Below are positions 4,881 to 64,000 of a stretch of DNA of 64,000 bases, one piece after another (position 1 is the first letter of the stretch; each line of letters starts with the position of its first letter). The notes under the pieces were generated by a model. That model was given only the letters and a program-made list of their open reading frames with translations, had not been told where the DNA came from and ran no database searches. The position numbers and the translations under genes are program-made. The stretch lies in sequence record NC_028894.1, one strand, 5' to 3'. The DNA is from Escherichia phage vB_EcoM_VR20.

Positions 4881-5140
4881 TATTCAAATCGAATGGTTGA
4901 ATTCTTGAACAACAATCCAGAACAAACAGTTCCTTTGACCTGTTTACCGGTCGGACCCACTGCTGTAAAACCAGTACGTTGGAAGTCATCTTCAGAACAC
5001 CCAAACAAACTATACCCAGTGATTTGGATTTGCTCAAAACCATTGGCATTCAAAACCTTAGTAGCATTATCGGCGTCAGTGCACCCGACCAGAGAAACGG
5101 CAAGAACCAGTGCAGCAATAGAACGATTTACGTATTTCAT
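4880..5140 (-). CDS. putative lipoprotein
   Basis: 86-aa ORF with signal peptide ending in lipobox-like LVGC. Confidence 0.5.
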   Translation of the reverse strand: MKYVNRSIAALVLAVSLVGCTDADNATKVLNANGFEQIQITGYSLFGCSEDDFQRTGFTAVGPTGKQVKGTVCSGLLFKNSTIRFE

Positions 5141-5146
5141 AATTTC

Positions 5147-5320
5147 TCACTTAAGCAGGTCGTAGAACCCGCCATTAACATGTTTAGGAGCAGAGACTAA
5201 CCGAACAGCCAGCCGATGGCAATCAGGACAAACATCAGTATCTCTTTCAGAGATTTTCTTGATTTTTTCGTATTCTTTCGCACAGTCTTCAGATTGGCAT
5301 TTGTAATCATAAAGTGGCAT
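5147..5320 (-). CDS. small zinc-ribbon protein (CxxC...CxxC), not in the ORF track
   Basis: Hand translation of minus strand gives MPLYDYKCQSEDCAKEYEKIKKISERDTDVCPDCHRLAVRLVSAPKHVNGGFYDLLK; two CxxC pairs. Confidence 0.4.
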   Translation of the reverse strand: MPLYDYKCQSEDCAKEYEKIKKISERDTDVCPDCHRLAVRLVSAPKHVNGGFYDLLK

Positions 5321-5327
5321 CTCTAAA

Positions 5328-5687
5328 TTATTCCTTAAAGTGTGCTTTCAACATCTGGAAAACTGACCAGGCTTCTTCATTATTACTAATGGTGATTTTA
5401 GTCAATGGGAATGCAGTGATTTCTGGAGCTTCAGTTTCTTCATCGCCGTCATCTTTTTCTTCTTCAAAGAAACGACGTTCATCTTCCTTTATGAATAGTT
5501 TCTCTATTCCACCGGTCGAAAATTCTATCCGATATACATCACCACCTTCAATTCCGACTGGTCTAAATCCTTCACCATTGATTATAGCATCAGCTATATT
5601 ATCATTATCCGTGCATAACAAACGGAATCTGCTTTCAGCAACATTATCTTTAAAATAATACCATTTATCAGTTTCAAATTTAGACAT
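5328..5687 (-). CDS. hypothetical acidic protein (start trimmed to MSKFETDKW)
   Basis: ORF 5328..5828 trimmed to an internal Met that abuts the upstream gene stop. Confidence 0.4.
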   Translation of the reverse strand: MSKFETDKWYYFKDNVAESRFRLLCTDNDNIADAIINGEGFRPVGIEGGDVYRIEFSTGGIEKLFIKEDERRFFEEEKDDGDEETEAPEITAFPLTKITISNNEEAWSVFQMLKAHFKE

Positions 5688-5904
5688 TATAAGTCTCCTT
5701 CCAAAAATCTGTACCATCTTCTGATTCTTCACGAAAAAGCGCATAGCTTGGTAGCTGTGCGTCTTTATTTTCATACACATAAATGATATCAGTTGTGCAA
5801 AGAAACTCATTGATGTTTTTCTTAACAATCACTTTATCACTTTCAGCAGTGTCCCAAAACTCTTCAGCGGTCAGGGAAGTGGTCACACAATCTTCATTGA
5901 ACAT
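5680..5904 (-). CDS. small hypothetical protein
   Basis: 74-aa ORF preceded by GAGGA-type ribosome-binding site. Confidence 0.4.
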   Translation of the reverse strand: MFNEDCVTTSLTAEEFWDTAESDKVIVKKNINEFLCTTDIIYVYENKDAQLPSYALFREESEDGTDFWKETYNV

Positions 5905-5952
5905 AATATTCTCCTCATTGATAGGGCAAAATTACCCTATCATTTTTATAAT

Positions 5953-6435
5953 TTATGCTTTTGCTGCGCCGCAATAATTAAAGATAAACTGCTCCGGGAC
6001 TACTTTATATGTTCCACGGAATACAATGTTGTAAAGCTTAACACCATCTTCAACCCACTGGTCTGTAATCCAACCTGCCATTTCTTTAGTTTCATATGCA
6101 TCGCCATACGGTTTAAATGGAACTGGAGTTATGAAACGAATACTTTTACCTAATTTCCATTTAAAATCAACACCAACATGAGACTGGTCAATGGTTTCAA
6201 CTTCTTCAACTACTGGAGCGATATATCCAGTAAATTCAGTTGATTCCAGGAATTTAGGATGTACATAAGCCAATTGAGTTTCAGTATGGCCATGTTTAGG
6301 AATAATACGCACTTTAACTTCTTTAATTCCACCTACTAAATTAGTGCGAAGACCCACAACCTCAACAAAACGCCCAGCAGCTTTAGAACGAGATTCTTTA
6401 GAAACACGTACAATATCACCAGCTTCAACTTTCAT
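5953..6435 (-). CDS. hypothetical protein sharing a C-terminal domain with the next gene
   Basis: 160-aa ORF; C-terminal GWITDQWVEDGVKLYNIVF...VVP also present in the 6512..7267 product. Confidence 0.5.
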   Translation of the reverse strand: MKVEAGDIVRVSKESRSKAAGRFVEVVGLRTNLVGGIKEVKVRIIPKHGHTETQLAYVHPKFLESTEFTGYIAPVVEEVETIDQSHVGVDFKWKLGKSIRFITPVPFKPYGDAYETKEMAGWITDQWVEDGVKLYNIVFRGTYKVVPEQFIFNYCGAAKA

Positions 6436-6511
6436 AATTTTCTCTCTTGGTTAATAAGTTTATTCTCCAGTGGGGTCATTATACTCTGACCCCAAGAGTT
6501 TGTACACAAAT

Positions 6512-7267
6512 TTAATTATAAATTTTAACTACCATAGAACGTGGTACAACAGTAAATTCACCAGCATGGACAACGTTCAGGAGTTCAACACCATCTTCAA
6601 TCCACTGGTCTGTTACCCAACCACAAATGGAACTATTAAATGGGCGTTTGATTTGAACTGGTTTACATAGCAAGTCAATAGGGTCACCCAGCTCGCTAAC
6701 TTCTTCCAGCAGTACAGATTCACGCGGATAAAGGATAGCTTCAAGATTGTCACCTGATTCGTTGACTGCAGTAAATTCAAAGATGCTTTGGTGATTGTGG
6801 TACTTAACTGTTTTAACGGTAAATGGAGTAAATCCAAAAATACCTTTCAGTACCCGCCAACCAGCATGCATTGCGACAGTCTTTCCAAATTGACTATCAT
6901 CTTCAATAAGCTGATAGGTTTTACCAACTTTGATAGGAGTTTCTTCAACTTCTTTGAAGAGTTCAATCTCAGCTTCATAAACCATAATTTTTTCTACTTC
7001 ATTTGTATCAAGGCGACGTGCATGTAGAATATATGCTTTATCAAACCAGTTACTTTTTACAAAAGTTTCAACAATAAATTCACCTTCACCTAAAGCATCA
7101 GTCAGAGTATTATACCCAGAAACCATAGCTGCATTTTGAATAATAGGTTCAACCAGTTGATAAGTTTTGTTAATTTCAATAGTCATATTTTGTTTCTCAA
7201 GTTTTAATGGTTTAATTGGGCGAACATACATACTTACAACATCAAAGTCAATAAATTCTGGTTTCAT
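6512..7267 (-). CDS. hypothetical protein, paralog of the 5953..6435 product, with internal KTYQL repeat
   Basis: 251-aa ORF; C-terminal GWVTDQWIEDGVELLNVV...VVP; INKTYQLVEP and VGKTYQLIED internal repeats. Confidence 0.5.
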   Translation of the reverse strand: MKPEFIDFDVVSMYVRPIKPLKLEKQNMTIEINKTYQLVEPIIQNAAMVSGYNTLTDALGEGEFIVETFVKSNWFDKAYILHARRLDTNEVEKIMVYEAEIELFKEVEETPIKVGKTYQLIEDDSQFGKTVAMHAGWRVLKGIFGFTPFTVKTVKYHNHQSIFEFTAVNESGDNLEAILYPRESVLLEEVSELGDPIDLLCKPVQIKRPFNSSICGWVTDQWIEDGVELLNVVHAGEFTVVPRSMVVKIYN

Positions 7268-7524
7268 TATGCAACCTTATTGAACATCGCCAGTTGATTA
7301 TGTTGTACAACCATAATTTCACGACGACCTTTTGTGTTTGACACATTCAAGTAAATGCCTTTGTTCATGTCTGTTTCTTTATCATATACCGCAATTTTAT
7401 TGACAGTAAAGATTTTACCACGAATATTTGTAAATGCACATTCAAACGCTTTAGTCAGACCTGCTTCAGCAGCTTGAAGAGCAGACATTTCATATTGTTG
7501 GCCAATTTCAAAAGAAGTAATCAT
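7267..7524 (-). CDS. hypothetical protein (start trimmed to MITSFEIG)
   Basis: Track ORF 7267..7572 reads through the conserved promoter leader (STTDEDNKM); trimmed to the Met after the GAGGA site. Confidence 0.45.
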   Translation of the reverse strand: MITSFEIGQQYEMSALQAAEAGLTKAFECAFTNIRGKIFTVNKIAVYDKETDMNKGIYLNVSNTKGRREIMVVQHNQLAMFNKVA

Positions 7525-7555
7525 TTTGTTATCCTCATCAGTAGTTGATGAGATG

Positions 7556-7585
7556 ATTATGTCTCTTTCCATTGGCCTTGTACAC
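7556..7585 (-). promoter_or_regulatory. sigma70-type early promoter, -35 TGTACA, 17-bp spacer, -10 CATAAT, with conserved CATCAACTACTGATGAGGA leader
   Basis: Motif read on minus strand upstream of the 7524 start; member of a repeated promoter family. Confidence 0.5.
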
Positions 7586-7591
7586 TACTTT

Positions 7592-8275
7592 TTATCGTTT
7601 TTTCGGTAAAGATAACGGGTCTGCATCTTCTTCGGAAGGAACTTCATCTAAACCAAGAGCATAGCGCTGGGCATACTTTAACATCAAAATATCTTTCGCG
7701 CAGTCATGTACCGAATCGTGCGCCACAAATCCATCTAAAGTCCCTTTCGGTAATGGGGTTTCACACATCTTACGGACGAGTGACAAGGCTTCGATGGCTG
7801 TCCTGATATCTCGCTGGTTCCAGAATACAACCGGCTCCAGGTTATAGGTATTCAATTCACGCTCAGGAATCCCCTCATTGCGCTGTAGGTCACGGATAAG
7901 GTCGACAAACAACGGGAAGTCAAAAGACATTCCACGGCACCACATAAGGCTTTCGTATTTGTTAATTCCATTACCATTCAGATAGTCAATCGCCTGTTGG
8001 ATACCGGTCAGAGTATCAACATCATGCGCAGAAGGAGCCAGGTTAACACGGGCTTCTGCTGATTGCTTTTTCCACCAACCCATGGTTGTTGTATCGAACA
8101 GACGCTTACCTTTCTGGTATTCTAGGCTGAACTTAATGCGTTTACCGCGATTAACCAGAGTTTCAAAAGATTCCACAATAGCCGGGTCAGATTCGAACGT
8201 AATCAGAGCCAGGTCAATAACGGCTCCCTTCGAGCCGTTTCCCAGAGTTTCAAAGTCAATAATAGCATCAATCAT
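7592..8275 (-). CDS. dexA: exonuclease A (DEDD-family 3'-5' exonuclease)
   Basis: About 227 aa; IIDFETLG N-terminal motif, WCRGMSFDFP and GFVAHDSVHDCAKD regions as I recall T4 DexA; correct position upstream of dda. Confidence 0.8.
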   Translation of the reverse strand: MIDAIIDFETLGNGSKGAVIDLALITFESDPAIVESFETLVNRGKRIKFSLEYQKGKRLFDTTTMGWWKKQSAEARVNLAPSAHDVDTLTGIQQAIDYLNGNGINKYESLMWCRGMSFDFPLFVDLIRDLQRNEGIPERELNTYNLEPVVFWNQRDIRTAIEALSLVRKMCETPLPKGTLDGFVAHDSVHDCAKDILMLKYAQRYALGLDEVPSEEDADPLSLPKKR

Positions 8276-60309: not shown

Positions 60310-60896
60310 TTACGGCATTCCTCAATAAAAGAGTTCAATGTATTTTTCTTATTGATATCGTCATATAGCTTTTTAACTTTAGAAATACGAAAAGGTACTT
60401 CAATAGCCATAGTCCATAAAAATGATGCAATAAGTCCAATAGCAGCAGAAGAAACACACGCGCCCATTACAGCTACAGGTGCTTCATTTTTACCTGTCAA
60501 GAAAAACAACAGGATTGGTAAAAATAAGATTCCAGCCCACGCATAAAACCTGGAACAAATTAACTTATCAAATTCATCTTTCCAGGTACGAAATCCATAT
60601 TTCTTGCTATAAGAAATTAATGGGTCAGGTGTCTGTTCTTTGAGTGGTTCTGGTTGATGTCCATTAATGATGTATCCCATTTTATATTCCTTAATTAAAA
60701 GCTCTTTCACATGACGATTGCATCGCGACCAATCAACATTTTCCACCTTGATTCCTTCATCACCATCATCAAGGTTCGCCCAATATTTTTTGGTAATCAT
60801 AAATTCGTCTCTTGATACAATTATACCTGCATTTTCTGCCCGGCGGATGAAGTTTACATCAACACCCATGCACCCAGGTTCATACAGCATTACCAT
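60306..60896 (-). CDS. membrane protein
   Basis: 196 aa with two hydrophobic segments in the C-terminal half. Confidence 0.45.
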   Translation of the reverse strand: MVMLYEPGCMGVDVNFIRRAENAGIIVSRDEFMITKKYWANLDDGDEGIKVENVDWSRCNRHVKELLIKEYKMGYIINGHQPEPLKEQTPDPLISYSKKYGFRTWKDEFDKLICSRFYAWAGILFLPILLFFLTGKNEAPVAVMGACVSSAAIGLIASFLWTMAIEVPFRISKVKKLYDDINKKNTLNSFIEECRK

Positions 60897-61576
60897 CCCT
60901 CCATAGGGAATTCCAGATATACTTGAGCATTAACGCGGATTTCATTTGTAATCTTTTTAACACGGTCGGTATTACGAGACACACGACCAAACCAGCGCCA
61001 CCCGTTACTTACTGCACGAGAACCTGTATGCCATGTCTGCCAATCAAACTGGAGCAACGTGCGGTCAGGAGCATCCCACTTGGTTAATTCATTGGACTCA
61101 ATTTTTTCCAGAACTTCTTTATGCCACTGGCGATAGATAAGTTCACCTTCAGGAATCTGACTAAATTGGGCAGTTCCGGTTGCAAAATAAGTAGGACACA
61201 CATCAGCGTTAACAAGACCAAGAATATGTTCAGAATGGTAACGAGGATTATCATAATCAGGTTGCCCTGCAGTAATAAAGTGTTGACCAACCGGAATATC
61301 CGGACGCGGTACATCATCATGGTGATAACCTGGGATAGCAGGATACCAACCAGGCATTAACATATGTACACGAGAATCGAATACGACATTTTCATTAGTC
61401 CAATCAATCGGAAGATTGGTAATAAAACTACGAGTGATTGGGCCGCCTTTATCCCAAGCAAAACTCAAATCACAGTTAAAGAACATCGGTTCATTTTTGA
61501 TTTGATCGTTTTGAACATCGTGAGCAAAACCACTTACGGCACGAGCTCGGCTATTAAACACTTTAGAACTATTCAT
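60890..61576 (-). CDS. hypothetical protein
   Basis: 228-aa ORF with GAGGA site. Confidence 0.45.
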   Translation of the reverse strand: MNSSKVFNSRARAVSGFAHDVQNDQIKNEPMFFNCDLSFAWDKGGPITRSFITNLPIDWTNENVVFDSRVHMLMPGWYPAIPGYHHDDVPRPDIPVGQHFITAGQPDYDNPRYHSEHILGLVNADVCPTYFATGTAQFSQIPEGELIYRQWHKEVLEKIESNELTKWDAPDRTLLQFDWQTWHTGSRAVSNGWRWFGRVSRNTDRVKKITNEIRVNAQVYLEFPMEGW

Positions 61577-61635: not shown

Positions 61636-62595
61636 TTATTTTGTGAAAGGGCGAATTAAATGTTGGTTAGCCTTGAAGCGTTTAACATAGTCTTCGCGAC
61701 CCAGGGTGTTGTACATATTAACCACTTCCTGGTAATGTTCCCAGGCATACTCACGGAACCATCCAGAAGTAATGGAGGTACAGACTTTTTCCAGTGCAAT
61801 ATGGAAGCTCACGGATGGAGAAATATTGAACTCATTAGGAACCTGCGAACGCTCCAGAGCGAGCACACATGCTTCTTCATAAACCCCTGCCAGTTTAATA
61901 ACATCAGGGAGTGCTTCAAATTTTTCACGTGAGGTCATGACTTCTGAATCATCCTTCATATAGAACTTATATGCAGGCTTATCAGCAAGCGCCACGGCCT
62001 CGTGGATGGAGTCATGGTCAAGGGTATAGATTGTATCATTAAAGAAAGTTTTCTTGCCCACGTCTAGTTTAGGGTGACTGTATGACAGTGTTTCTGCCTG
62101 ACGCTGCAGCATGATTTTCTGCAGCTCATCATTAAGAACAATACCCTTATTGCGAAGGTAATTAATATGACTCATGGTCTTCAGGAAGAATGGATTGTTC
62201 TTCAGGTAACGATGAGATAATTTAATTGCCAGACAAATATCAGGAGTCGCCCAGTAAAAACCTGTAAGACGGTCCTTTTTAATATGATTTTCAGCATATT
62301 TCAGGAGACGATAACTTGAGGTGAAATCTTCGTCTTGAAGCTCGCCAGTAATTTCTCGTACGTTGGTCAGGGCACGGACAATATAAGCTTCAAAATAGGT
62401 TTCTTTGCCATTGTACATACATTTAAAAGCTTGGACATCAGGGTTATCCACAGGAATATGAGCACCGAACATACGTGCTTTAAAGTGGTTCCATGAGCCT
62501 TGGTCGGCAATGAAATCCCAATCAGAGTTTTCAATTTTCTGACTTTCAATCAGACCAGCGTTATGTAATGCACGAGAACCAATAACTAACATCAT
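61636..62595 (-). CDS. hypothetical protein
   Basis: 319-aa ORF. Confidence 0.5.
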   Translation of the reverse strand: MMLVIGSRALHNAGLIESQKIENSDWDFIADQGSWNHFKARMFGAHIPVDNPDVQAFKCMYNGKETYFEAYIVRALTNVREITGELQDEDFTSSYRLLKYAENHIKKDRLTGFYWATPDICLAIKLSHRYLKNNPFFLKTMSHINYLRNKGIVLNDELQKIMLQRQAETLSYSHPKLDVGKKTFFNDTIYTLDHDSIHEAVALADKPAYKFYMKDDSEVMTSREKFEALPDVIKLAGVYEEACVLALERSQVPNEFNISPSVSFHIALEKVCTSITSGWFREYAWEHYQEVVNMYNTLGREDYVKRFKANQHLIRPFTK

Positions 62596-62608: not shown

Positions 62609-62776
62609 TTAGTAAAGACGAGTTACTTCATATTTTCCAAGTGCCGATTTTTTCGCTTCAATTCGTGAGGCAGCAAGATTGGCGGCCTCTAGTGAAGAAA
62701 ATTGAACCACTTGAGAAGTATTCTGTCTTACTCCACCTTGCGGGTGAGTGACAAAAACAATAAGAACATTATACAT
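62609..62776 (-). CDS. small hypothetical protein, not in the ORF track
   Basis: Hand translation MYNVLIVFVTHPQGGVRQNTSQVVQFSSLEAANLAASRIEAKKSALGKYEVTRLY; follows a family promoter. Confidence 0.35.
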   Translation of the reverse strand: MYNVLIVFVTHPQGGVRQNTSQVVQFSSLEAANLAASRIEAKKSALGKYEVTRLY

Positions 62777-62879
62777 AATATTTTCCTCATTAGTTGACGA
62801 GATAATGATACTACGTTTCTTTAGGCTTGTACACTAAATTTCTGCACATAAGTCCTCCTATCACATCCTTGTGATAATT

Positions 62880-63113
62880 TTAGCAGCTACTCGGATACCA
62901 GATTTTACCATCGGCACGAGCAACGAAGGTACGACCAGCTTCTTCACCATAACAAGAGCTGTTCAACCAGTCTTCAAGACGGACTTCGCCGTCATAATCA
63001 TCAAGCTCAACACCAAAATCTTGAGCAGAAGCCATATCTTTTACTTTCTTATACAGTGCAGCCAGTTCAAGGGCGGCTTTTTCTAATTCAGCATGTTCAA
63101 CAGCAGTAGTCAT
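62880..63113 (-). CDS. small acidic protein, tandem paralog family member
   Basis: 77 aa ending WYPSSC. Confidence 0.45.
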   Translation of the reverse strand: MTTAVEHAELEKAALELAALYKKVKDMASAQDFGVELDDYDGEVRLEDWLNSSCYGEEAGRTFVARADGKIWYPSSC

Positions 63114-63122
63114 TTTATCACC

Positions 63123-63350
63123 TTAGCAAGACATAGAGGAGTTGTACCAGAAACCTTTACCTTCTGGGATACCATAATCACCGTGAATCCAGTCATATTT
63201 TTTATATTCTGGGCAACCCGCGGGAATATATCGCTGAAGACTGTCAGCATATACATGAAAGTATTCACCAGTTTTATCGGCCAGCTGTTCACCTTCACAG
63301 ATTAGTGCACGGATTTGGTCTTCAATTTCTTTAACAGTTTTAGTAGTCAT
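63123..63350 (-). CDS. small acidic protein, tandem paralog family member
   Basis: 75 aa ending WYNSSMSC. Confidence 0.45.
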   Translation of the reverse strand: MTTKTVKEIEDQIRALICEGEQLADKTGEYFHVYADSLQRYIPAGCPEYKKYDWIHGDYGIPEGKGFWYNSSMSC

Positions 63351-63358
63351 TTATTTCC

Positions 63359-63571
63359 TTAGCATTCGTAAGAGGAGGACACCCAGGAGTTACCGCTAAT
63401 AGTAATACAACCATTATAAAGCGTGATATGTTGTTCCAGATTACGCTGACCATCGATATAGATATCAGCTTCTTCACGTTCTTCTTTACAAATCTGGATA
63501 ACATTTTCAATAGCTGCCGCGGCAGTACGGATTGCACAATCTAATTCACGAGACATAACATTCCTTAACAT
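63359..63571 (-). CDS. small acidic protein, tandem paralog family member
   Basis: 70 aa ending WVSSSYEC. Confidence 0.45.
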   Translation of the reverse strand: MLRNVMSRELDCAIRTAAAAIENVIQICKEEREEADIYIDGQRNLEQHITLYNGCITISGNSWVSSSYEC

Positions 63572-63846
63572 TCAGCAGAAGAGGACACCCAACCACCATT
63601 TTCCAGGTCAGTTGTATAGTCATGAGTATTAACAATAGCCCATTCAGGATGACCATGTTCTTCCCAATGAGCAAGGTCAGCTTTCAGGGCGCCAGGAGAA
63701 TAATAGTCACCGCCCATACCGCGAGCAGGGTATATATTAAAATGAGTCTCATATTTGTCTGCAATTTCCTCGGCACGACGAATAGCTTTATGGATGTCAT
63801 TTACTGCGTTAGCCAGTTCTTTATTTTTACGGTAATCATTCATCAT
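63565..63846 (-). CDS. small acidic protein, tandem paralog family member
   Basis: 93 aa ending WVSSSAEC. Confidence 0.45.
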   Translation of the reverse strand: MMNDYRKNKELANAVNDIHKAIRRAEEIADKYETHFNIYPARGMGGDYYSPGALKADLAHWEEHGHPEWAIVNTHDYTTDLENGGWVSSSAEC

Positions 63847-63855
63847 AGCGTTTCC

Positions 63856-64000
63856 TTAGCACATTGCCGAAGAGGAGACCCAAGCACCAACTGTAACGAC
63901 ACCGTTTTCAACTTCACCGCCGTTGTTTTCAATTTCATCTTTAAACCACTGGGAGCATTCATAACCGACAGGATAATATGTACGGCCCGAACCATAATCA
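63856..64000 (-). CDS. tandem paralog family member, 5' end beyond the window edge
   Basis: Hand translation of the minus strand ends ...GAWVSSSAMC followed by a stop; start lies outside the window. Confidence 0.4.
   Translation of the reverse strand, partial: DYGSGRTYYPVGYECSQWFKDEIENNGGEVENGVVTVGAWVSSSAMC

What the first reader, a model, noticed from the sequence alone, without database searches (positions are those of the whole stretch)
62880..64000. Tandem array of at least five small acidic paralogs with a conserved C-terminal W-x-SS-x-C tail
Five consecutive minus-strand genes, the last truncated by the window edge, each encode a 70-93 aa acidic protein with a helical-looking N-terminus and end in near-identical tails: WYPSSC, WYNSSMSC, WVSSSYEC, WVSSSAEC, WVSSSAMC. 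Each stop is followed by an AAGGAA site and the next start. T4 has unrelated single-copy e.2-e.8 ORFs at this position as far as I recall, so this looks like a lineage-specific, diversifying gene family. The invariant Trp, Ser run and terminal Cys suggest a shared anchoring, modification or recognition motif on variable acidic bodies, a pattern seen in anti-defence or DNA-mimic families.
Basis: seen in the sequence. Interest (0 to 1): 0.65.

Follow-up and report, generated by a model that had tools for sequence, protein, structure and literature searches.

The report
Cys-tailed phage proteins paired with nucleotidyltransferase
The five small acidic genes are real paralogs of a widespread, unstudied phage protein family that ends in an invariant Trp-x-x-Ser...Cys tail, and they almost always sit just upstream of a MenT-like nucleotidyltransferase gene, which points to a two-part module in which the enzyme acts on or is controlled by the tails.

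Summary
Five tightly packed minus-strand genes (62880 to the window edge) encode acidic proteins of 65-96 aa. Each ends in W-x-x-S-S-(x0-3)-C followed by the stop codon, and no other ORF in the window ends this way.

The family is neither lineage-specific nor diversifying:
- It matches PHROG 899 and 4882, both of unknown function.
- It occurs in many groups of large phages.
- Orthologs are under purifying selection (dN/dS 0.02-0.58).

The new result is a conserved gene linkage.
- In 71 of 80 loci fetched through homologs of the window's 319-aa protein (61636-62595, DUF7277+DUF7275), one to six family members lie on the same strand. 161 of the 166 hits end within 2.3 kb upstream.
- In the reverse test, all 33 testable family loci carry the enzyme gene next to them, almost always downstream.
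- The module is essentially phage-only, and I found no literature on it.

My best reading (confidence 0.4) is that the small proteins are clients of the enzyme: a docking helix plus a tail whose invariant Ser is nucleotidylylated. The rivals are a MenA1-like inhibitor and a targeting adaptor. The host-directed function is unknown.

The parts
62880..63113 (-). P1, 77 aa, pI 4.4. It is the double-motif type: an internal DWLNSSCYGE plus the terminal WYPSSC.
   Evidence: PHROG 899, E 9e-10. The double motif is conserved in 18 unique relatives. dN/dS is 0.02-0.19.
63123..63350 (-). P2, 75 aa, ends WYNSSMSC.
   Evidence: PHROG 899, E 5e-15. Its orthologous group has the pattern ...EYIPASSPEY..GFW[FY]SSSMSC. 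dN/dS is 0.13-0.17.
63359..63556 (-). P3, 65 aa, ends WVSSSYEC. It is the most divergent body in the array, with no IAD or YGMGG motif.
   Evidence: PHROG 4882, E 3e-36, residues 1-65. dN/dS is 0.09-0.29.
63565..63846 (-). P4, 93 aa, ends WVSSSAEC and has a single Cys, the terminal one. It belongs to the YGMGG-loop type, which is the commonest form of the family.
   Evidence: (PHROG 899, E 2e-20). dN/dS is 0.17-0.58.
63856..64000 (-). P5, the C-terminal 47 aa of a 96-aa protein, cut by the window edge; ends WVSSSAMC.
   Evidence: PHROG 899, E 1e-8. The full-length ortholog is SP18 gp141, which is preceded by a membrane-protein gene, so the array has five members.
63114..63864 (-). Four short junctions of 8-9 nt between one stop and the next start: stop TAA, then GGAA or GGTG, then the next ATG. 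This is an operon-like, probably translationally coupled arrangement.
   Evidence: Read directly from the sequence.
62777..62879 (-). A 103-nt spacer between P1 and the next gene. It replaces about 830 nt holding three extra genes in phage SP18. It contains a weak promoter-like site at 62833-62805.
   Evidence: The predicted fold is not significant (z -1.1).
62609..62776 (-). An intervening 55-aa basic ORF (PHROG 20278). It is not part of the conserved module.
   Evidence: It was found in only 2 of 80 related loci.
61636..62595 (-). The 319-aa partner enzyme. Its N-terminal DUF7277 is a nucleotidyltransferase domain with invariant G6, S7, D25, D27 and E69. Its C-terminal DUF7275 is helical, with invariant H128, H174, H194, D195, H198, E240, E241, E248, R249, K270 and R281.

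Best explanation
SHOWN:
- The five genes belong to a large, phage-only family of small acidic proteins.
- Family members have an N-terminal helix of about 30 residues, a variable acidic body, and an invariant C-terminal tail, G-x-W-x-x-S-S-(x0,2,3)-Cys-COOH.
- One to six such genes sit in one operon-like unit with a single gene for a MenT/ANT-fold nucleotidyltransferase, nearly always directly upstream of it.

INFERRED:
- The small proteins are protein clients (substrates) of that enzyme.
- The conserved helix docks on the enzyme, as the helix of the antitoxin MenA1 docks on MenT1.
- The flexible tail then enters the active site, where the invariant Ser three residues after the Trp receives a nucleotide (O-nucleotidylylation). 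The terminal Cys could help bind the metal and triphosphate, or react further.
- One enzyme would therefore mature a set of different acidic effector proteins. Their variable bodies would act early in infection on different, still unknown, host targets, most plausibly nucleic-acid-binding or defence proteins.
For: 1. Family and tail. A profile search of 1.84 billion representative proteins finds about 35 small relatives with the same three motifs. Among 147 unique members from related loci:
   - 143 fit the tail;
   - Ser at W+3 occurs in 143 of 143;
   - Ser at W+4 occurs in 128 of 143;
   - the Cys is the last residue in 162 of 166 hits (before de-duplication);
   - 59 of 147 have no other Cys;
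   - mean net charge is -8.2.
2. Linkage, forward test. In 80 IMG/VR loci fetched only by homology to the enzyme (38-93% identity), 71 carry family ORFs by HMM. All 166 hits are on the enzyme's strand: 161 end within 2.3 kb upstream, 5 lie just downstream and none elsewhere. Seven of the nine negative loci hold divergent ORFs with the same tail at the same place.
3. Linkage, reverse test. Loci were fetched by a DNA pattern for YGMGGTY. All 33 family loci with more than 1.1 kb of stored downstream sequence carry the enzyme gene next to the family genes; it lies downstream in 29, and in 4 the called ORFs overlap it or some family ORFs lie beyond it.
4. The pairing holds in Otagovirus, Phapecoctavirus and Stenotrophomonas phages, in three unrelated metagenomic contigs and in four MAG contigs. 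Other neighbours are not conserved: 21, 12 and 2 of 80 loci.
5. The enzyme has a confident nucleotidyltransferase fold with invariant catalytic carboxylates. Relatives of this fold transfer NMP to hydroxyl groups of RNA 3' ends (MenT) or of small molecules (ANT(2''), LnuA).
6. Several distinct, individually conserved paralogs under purifying selection share one enzyme. That fits many clients and one modifier better than many antitoxins and one toxin.
7. The only feature common to all subtypes is the tail with its two nucleophiles. P3 and P1 lack the IAD and YGMGG motifs.
8. There is precedent for a nucleotidyltransferase that modifies its small partner protein: MntA adenylylates HepT (abstract of PMC7641770, listed).
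Against: - No modification has been observed, and nothing here shows physical contact between tail and enzyme.
- The closest solved relative, MenT1, acts on tRNA rather than protein, and its small upstream partner is an inhibitor.
- The structure of the small proteins could not be predicted with confidence (single-sequence AF2, pLDDT 50.6), so 'docking helix plus flexible tail' rests on sequence pattern.
- The role of the strictly terminal Cys is not explained by simple Ser nucleotidylylation.
- The loci counted are not phylogenetically independent.
- The host-directed function is pure inference from acidity and from the position in an early, hyperplastic region.
Confidence: 0.4

Rival explanations
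1. MenA1-like inhibitors or regulators. The phage enzyme is a MenT-type tRNA (or RNA) nucleotidyltransferase used for host shut-off or RNA repair. The small acidic proteins bind it and block or time its activity, with the tail acting as a pseudo-substrate plug in the active site.
For: - MenT1 is neutralised by MenA1, a 68-aa helical protein. Of 21 menA1 homologues found, 15 lie upstream of a menT-like gene.
- The gene order, small acidic gene(s) then enzyme on one strand, is the classic antitoxin-toxin order.
Against: - There are up to six distinct, separately conserved paralogs per enzyme.
- MenA1 needs only its 32-aa helix, and its C-terminus is dispensable. Here the C-terminal tail is the invariant part.
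- A profile of the family does not match MenA1 (8an5) among PDB sequences, even at E 10.
- The module is absent from bacterial chromosomes: 4 hits in 185,579 species genomes, all on phage-sized MAG contigs.
- The enzyme is not basic overall (pI 6.5).
Confidence: 0.2
2. Interchangeable targeting subunits. Each paralog anchors to the enzyme through its helix and tail and uses its variable body to direct the nucleotidyltransferase to a different substrate, such as different tRNAs or host proteins.
For: - One enzyme is paired with one to six paralogs that have conserved ends and variable middles.
- Paralog types are conserved across distant phages.
Against: - The variable bodies are short, acidic and of low complexity, and no recognisable binding domain was found.
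- 28 of the 71 positive loci have only one copy.
- I know of no precedent in this fold group.
Confidence: 0.15
3. Functionally independent small anti-defence or DNA-mimic proteins that merely share a hyperplastic early region with the enzyme.
For: - The proteins are strongly acidic.
- They lie between e.2-like and e.4-like genes in a region that varies between T4-like phages.
- An Acb2/vs.4-like gene is interleaved in the array of phage ukendt, and an Apyc1 gene lies nearby in one contig.
Against: - The linkage survives in phage groups that share no other neighbouring genes.
- It holds in both directions.
- There is no similarity to Ocr, ArdA, Arn or any Pfam, NCBIfam or PADLOC family.
Confidence: 0.07

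Closest known systems
MenAT1 toxin-antitoxin system of Mycobacterium tuberculosis (MenT1 nucleotidyltransferase plus the 68-aa MenA1)
   Different: - No sequence similarity of either partner. Pfam finds only DUF7277/DUF7275, and the family profile does not hit MenA1.
- The phage enzyme carries an extra conserved helical domain of about 190 aa.
- There are one to six partners instead of one.
- The partners' invariant part is a C-terminal Ser/Cys tail, whereas the C-terminus of MenA1 is dispensable.
- The module is phage-only.
MntA/HepT (MNT/HEPN), in which the nucleotidyltransferase adenylylates its partner protein
   Same: A minimal nucleotidyltransferase is encoded next to a small protein that it chemically modifies (abstract of PMC7641770, listed). 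This is the model I favour for how the phage module works.
   Different: - The partner here is not a HEPN RNase.
- The acceptor would be a tail Ser rather than a Tyr (the Tyr acceptor is from my own knowledge, not checked here).
- No toxicity is known, and there are several partners per enzyme.
RiPP gene clusters with many precursors and one modifying enzyme, such as lanthipeptides (prochlorosins with ProcM)
   Same: - Tandem, divergent small genes lie upstream of a single enzyme.
- There is a conserved N-terminal helix and a Ser-(x1-4)-Cys pair in the modified region, with spacing that varies as in lanthionine rings.
- The comparison with RiPP clusters is from my own knowledge.
   Different: - No LanB, LanM, LanKC or LanL, no radical-SAM enzyme, no protease and no exporter were seen in the neighbourhoods inspected.
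- The products are 65-130 aa acidic proteins rather than short secreted peptides.
- The conserved part is the site itself, not only a leader.
Acidic phage DNA-mimic or anti-defence proteins (Ocr, ArdA, Arn)
   Same: Small, strongly acidic, early-region phage proteins.
   Different: No sequence relationship. An invariant Trp/Ser/terminal-Cys tail and obligate enzyme linkage are not features of those families. The structure is unknown.
PHROG 899 / PHROG 4882 and Pfam DUF7277 / DUF7275
   Same: The window proteins are members by sequence.
   Different: These are unannotated bins. None records the tail motif or the pairing of the two families, and I found no paper that mentions either DUF.

Membership tests
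PHROG 899 / 4882 (small-protein family) | Significant match to the family profile | tested here: met
   P1, P2, P4 and P5 hit PHROG 899 at E 9e-10, 5e-15, 2e-20 and 1e-8. P3 hits PHROG 4882 at E 3e-36.
DUF7277 + DUF7275 (partner enzyme) | Pfam matches above the gathering score | tested here: met
   253.8 and 91.9 bits against cut-offs of 27.
MenT/AbiEii (DUF1814) nucleotidyltransferase toxins | Sequence membership in DUF1814/AbiEii | tested here: not met
   A Pfam scan at E up to 1 returns only DUF7275 and DUF7277. NCBIfam returns nothing.
MenT/AbiEii (DUF1814) nucleotidyltransferase toxins | Pol-beta-type nucleotidyltransferase fold with a G-S ... D-x-D ... acidic triad | tested here: met
MenT/AbiEii (DUF1814) nucleotidyltransferase toxins | Growth toxicity through NMP addition to tRNA 3' ends, neutralised by the cognate antitoxin | not testable with these tools
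   Needs expression and tRNA 3'-end sequencing.
MenAT1-type antitoxin (MenA1) | Homology of the small partner to MenA1 or to COG5340 antitoxins | tested here: not met
   The family profile searched against all PDB chain sequences at E up to 10 does not return the MenA1 chain of 8an5; only designed helical proteins appear. There is no Pfam hit.
Bacterial toxin-antitoxin module | Presence in bacterial chromosomes or plasmids | tested here: not met
   4 hits among one genome each of 185,579 species, all on MAG contigs of 73-167 kb. The large phage-like contig sizes make them likely to be mis-binned phage (my inference).
Lanthipeptide-like RiPP | Precursors with Ser/Thr and Cys at ring-forming spacing | tested here: met
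   Ser at W+3 in 143 of 143; the terminal Cys lies 2, 4 or 5 residues after it.
Lanthipeptide-like RiPP | A known dehydratase/cyclase (LanB/C, LanM, LanKC, LanL) plus a leader protease or exporter in the cluster | tested here: not met
   No such Pfam families in the window genes or in the called genes of four unrelated contigs.
DNA-mimic anti-restriction proteins (Ocr, ArdA, Arn) | Sequence or fold relationship, with surface carboxylates arranged like DNA phosphates | tested here: inconclusive
   No sequence relationship.

The most novel reading that the evidence does not exclude
This would be a phage-wide protein-tail maturation system of a new kind. A MenT-fold nucleotidyltransferase with a novel His/Asp-rich helical domain activates the invariant Ser of the W-x-x-S...Cys tail. 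There are two possible outcomes. One leaves a nucleotide or short oligonucleotide on an acidic protein, making a protein-nucleotide chimera that mimics an RNA 3' end. The other eliminates the nucleotide so that the terminal Cys closes a thioether ring. Either way, one enzyme would produce a panel of matured effector proteins used against host targets.
Probability: 0.15. Interest if true: 0.85.

Novelty: new variant of a known kind. Interest (0 to 1): 0.62.

Why it matters
Small ORFs in the variable early regions of large lytic phages are mostly dark matter. Here two unannotated families (PHROG 899/4882 and DUF7277/DUF7275; the enzyme is found in 730 GenBank phage records) turn out to form one conserved module with a sharply defined sequence signature and an enzyme of known fold.

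That yields concrete experiments, namely a mass shift on a defined Ser or Cys, and toxicity with rescue. It also offers a possible new route by which phages make or regulate effector proteins. If the tails are modified, this would add a protein substrate to a nucleotidyltransferase fold group so far known for tRNA and antibiotic targets. The tail motif could then be used to mine phage genomes for enzyme-matured effectors.

Tried and rejected
- AF2 of P4 from a single sequence gave pLDDT 50.6. It is not usable beyond an N-terminal helix.
- The word-indexed homology search with P4 found only close orthologs.
- The family profile against PDB sequences returned only designed helical bundles. The enzyme profile against PDB sequences returned nothing meaningful.
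- Pfam, NCBIfam and PADLOC scans of the small proteins gave nothing.
- The search for related loci with the broad alignments A4 and A3 failed for lack of a conserved stretch. I replaced them with alignment A5 and a degenerate DNA pattern.
- The afdb50 fold library was unavailable.
- Diversifying selection is rejected at the gene level (dN/dS below 1 throughout). Site-specific tests were not done.
- A three-gene module including the 228-aa downstream ORF is rejected, because that ORF co-occurs in only 21 of 80 loci.
- The hairpin in the 103-nt spacer folds no better than shuffled sequence (z -1.1), and no terminator-like sites were found.
- Gram-positive phage homologs (Streptomyces, Gordonia, Brevibacillus) match only the C-terminal domain and have no tail-bearing neighbour.
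- Five literature searches found nothing on these families or motifs.
- T4 was scanned only over 1-50 kb and 58-70 kb. Neither family is present there; the rest was not scanned.
Full report
**What the window is**

The last 4 kb of the window is 90-93% identical to Gaprivervirus-type T4-like phages such as SP18, VR7, VR26 and P896. In SP18 the same stretch lies between nudE/e.2 and e.4/e.6. T4 has e.2, e.3 and e.4 at that place and nothing resembling the array.

**Check of the observation**

Five minus-strand ORFs lie head to tail:

| Gene | Coordinates | Length | Tail |
|---|---|---|---|
| P1 | 62880-63113 | 77 aa | WYPSSC |
| P2 | 63123-63350 | 75 aa | WYNSSMSC |
| P3 | 63359-63556 | 65 aa | WVSSSYEC |
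| P4 | 63565-63846 | 93 aa | WVSSSAEC |
| P5 | 63856 to beyond the edge | 47 aa visible | WVSSSAMC |

- The SP18 ortholog of P5 is 96 aa and is preceded by a membrane-protein gene, so the array has exactly five members.
- The 70-aa reading of P3 starts inside the end of P4 without a ribosome-binding site. The 65-aa form matches PHROG 4882 end to end.
- Three junctions read TAAGGAA-n4-6-ATG and one reads TAAGGTG-n5-ATG.
- The proteins have pI 4.4-5.2 and net charge -4 to -8.
- Only these five of 7055 stop-to-stop segments in the window end in W..SS(x0-3)C.
- P1 also carries an internal copy of the motif, DWLNSSCYGE.

**The family**

- P1, P2, P4 and P5 match PHROG 899, and P3 matches PHROG 4882. 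Both are of unknown function.
- Pfam, NCBIfam and PADLOC give nothing.
- A profile of the window paralogs, searched against 1.84 billion representative proteins, returned 37 hits. About 35 of them are proteins of 65-131 aa with one plan:
  - an N-terminal helix ending in A-x-x-I-A-D-x-x-G-x-x-F;
  - usually a YGMGGTYY loop;
  - an acidic variable stretch;
  - G-x-W-x-S-S-x-x-C at the very end.
- tblastn with P4 alone finds relatives in 344 GenBank phage records from Escherichia, Klebsiella, Enterobacter, Citrobacter, Acinetobacter and other hosts.
- The five window genes represent separate orthologous groups that recur in distant phages. Phapecoctavirus ukendt, for example, has a P1-type, a P5-type and a YGMGG-type member.
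- Pairwise dN/dS against nine close relatives is 0.02-0.19 (P1), 0.13-0.17 (P2), 0.09-0.29 (P3), 0.17-0.58 (P4) and up to 0.10 (visible part of P5). The neighbouring enzyme gives 0.03-0.23.

The family is therefore old, widespread and under purifying selection. It is neither lineage-specific nor diversifying at the gene level.

**The linkage**

Three distant metagenomic contigs that carry a family member all have a DUF7277/DUF7275 gene next to it. The window has the same protein (319 aa, 61636-62595) just downstream of the array. I tested this pairing in both directions.

Forward test:
- 80 IMG/VR loci were fetched only by homology to the enzyme (38-93% identity; contigs from about 8 to 371 kb).
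- An HMM of the small family hits ORFs in 71 of them.
- All 166 hits are on the enzyme's strand. 161 end within 2.3 kb upstream of the enzyme match, 5 lie immediately downstream, and none lies elsewhere in the ~16-kb loci.
- Copy number is 1 (28 loci), 2 (23), 3 (3), 4 (3), 5 (13) or 6 (1).
- Of the nine negative loci, seven hold divergent ORFs with the same tail at the same place, one is truncated upstream and one is doubtful.

Reverse test:
- A degenerate DNA pattern for YGMGGTY found 73 loci, 43 of them with a family ORF.
- 33 of those have the enzyme gene next to the family genes: downstream in 29; in the other 4 the gap is negative, because the called ORFs overlap or family ORFs lie on both sides.
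- The other ten all have less than 1.1 kb of stored downstream sequence.

Further observations:
- The pairing also holds in Pseudomonas phage phiPsa267, Escherichia phage ukendt and Stenotrophomonas phage Yut2. In Yut2 the small genes follow the enzyme.
- Other neighbours of the window enzyme are not conserved: the 228-aa ORF occurs in 21 of 80 loci, the e.2-like gene in 12 and the 55-aa ORF in 2.
- A scan of one genome for each of 185,579 bacterial and archaeal species found four hits. All are on MAG contigs of 73-167 kb and each has tail-bearing ORFs upstream. The module is essentially confined to phages.
- The counted loci are not phylogenetically independent, but the identity range and the variety of contigs make shared ancestry alone an unlikely explanation.

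**The tail in numbers**

| Feature | Count among unique members |
|---|---|
| Fit the tail | 143 of 147 |
| Ser at W+3 | 143 of 143 |
| Ser at W+4 | 128 of 143 |
| Gly at W-2 | 85 of 143 |
| Distance from W to terminal Cys | 5 (26 members), 7 (109), 8 (8) |

- The Cys is the last residue in 162 of 166 hits (counted before de-duplication), and it is the only Cys in 59 of 147.
- Eighteen P1-type members also have the internal W-x-x-S-x-C-Y-G motif.
- The invariant core is therefore Trp, a Ser three residues later, and a Cys at a variable short distance that is nearly always the C-terminus.

**The enzyme**

- In a 59-sequence alignment, G6, D25, D27, E69, K125 and a set of His, Asp, Glu, Arg and Lys residues in the C-terminal domain are invariant.
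- AF2 with that alignment gives pLDDT 92.8.
- The match covers about 150 residues. The conserved C-terminal helical domain has no clear solved counterpart.
- Sequence methods do not place the enzyme in DUF1814.
- Homologs occur in 730 GenBank phage records. The C-terminal domain is also seen in giant-virus proteins.

**How it most likely works**

Three things are shown: a tail-bearing small-protein family, a catalytically intact nucleotidyltransferase, and near-obligate co-location in one transcription direction. The rest is inference.

I favour the client model at confidence 0.4. The helix docks on the enzyme, the tail enters the active site, and the invariant Ser is nucleotidylylated. One enzyme would thereby mature several acidic effectors.

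Reasons for this reading:
- The tail is the only feature shared by all subtypes.
- It carries two nucleophiles.
- Several separately conserved paralogs share one enzyme.
- Relatives of the fold transfer NMP to hydroxyl groups.
- A nucleotidyltransferase that modifies its small partner is already known: MntA with HepT.

The main rival (0.2) is a MenA1-like inhibitor. MenA1 is a 68-aa helical protein, and 15 of 21 menA1 homologues lie upstream of a menT-like gene. However, MenA1 needs only its 32-aa helix and not its C-terminus. It is also a single partner in a bacterial toxin-antitoxin pair.

A targeting-adaptor role (0.15) and mere co-location of independent anti-defence proteins (0.07) are less likely. 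What the small proteins do to the host is not addressed by any result here. Their acidity, their early-region position and the nearby Acb2-like and Apyc1 genes are only hints.

**Comparison with what is known, and novelty**

- The enzyme has the fold of MenT/AbiEii/ANT nucleotidyltransferases but is not a sequence member of them.
- The small proteins have no detectable known relative.
- The arrangement resembles both a MenAT1-type pair and a RiPP-type cluster of several precursors with one enzyme. It fails defining tests of both: no MenA1 homology and no bacterial occurrence; no known lanthipeptide enzymes, protease or exporter.
- No paper in the searchable library mentions DUF7275, DUF7277, the PHROGs or the motifs.
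- I file it as a new variant of a known kind, namely a protein-partnered MenT-fold nucleotidyltransferase module. I give about 15% to the more novel reading, a new protein-tail maturation chemistry.

**Verdict**

Its evolutionary reading (lineage-specific, diversifying) is wrong, and its functional guess remains open. Interest 0.62.

Noticed in passing
window 60890-61576 (-): A 228-aa ORF lies directly downstream of the enzyme. It has no Pfam or NCBIfam hit and matches PHROG 1843. One GenBank record (EAWsc9) lists 'phytanoyl-CoA dioxygenase' among its product names for this stretch, which may refer to this gene (not checked). It contains a YHHDD stretch that could be an Fe(II) site. It co-occurs with the module only in enterobacterial T4-like phages (21 of 80 loci).
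   Followed up: partly
window 62777-62879 compared with L001 (SP18) 7030-7890: The 103-nt spacer after P1 replaces about 830 nt that hold three extra small genes (gp134-136) in SP18 and P896. This marks an insertion/deletion hot spot between the array and the enzyme. The spacer holds an AGGAGG followed by a 12-codon mini-ORF, and a stem that is not statistically significant.
   Followed up: partly
L089 (Escherichia phage ukendt) 2929-4945: A vs.4-like gene lies between family members directly upstream of the enzyme gene. T4 Vs.4 is the anti-CBASS sponge Acb2 (from my own knowledge).
   Followed up: no
L006/L007 (metagenomic contigs) 4919-6891: Here the enzyme is split. A 137-aa DUF7277 gene follows the small protein on the same strand, while a 176-aa DUF7275 gene lies on the opposite strand just upstream. 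A SIR2 gene is 3 kb away.
   Followed up: no
BFVD hits to the enzyme model: DUF7275-domain proteins with the same fold occur in giant eukaryotic viruses (Sylvanvirus, Satyrvirus; 508-571 aa). The enzyme family therefore extends beyond phages. I did not check whether those genes have tail-bearing neighbours.
   Followed up: no
L091-L093 (Streptomyces, Gordonia and Brevibacillus phages): Homologs match only the C-terminal DUF7275 part, and no ORF with the W..S..C tail lies nearby. The pairing may be specific to enzymes that carry the DUF7277 nucleotidyltransferase domain, or to phages of Gram-negative hosts.
   Followed up: partly
window 63856-64000 and P0040, P0065, P0071 (119-123 aa): Some P5-type relatives carry an extra N-terminal segment of about 35 aa (for example MAADNRAYELKIFIDGHEIMPFDG...), and P0042 carries a 60-aa one. 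Their nature is unknown.
   Followed up: no
L005 2782-3843: An anti-Pycsar Apyc1-family gene lies about 2 kb upstream of the module in one unrelated contig. This is weak support for an anti-defence neighbourhood.
   Followed up: no
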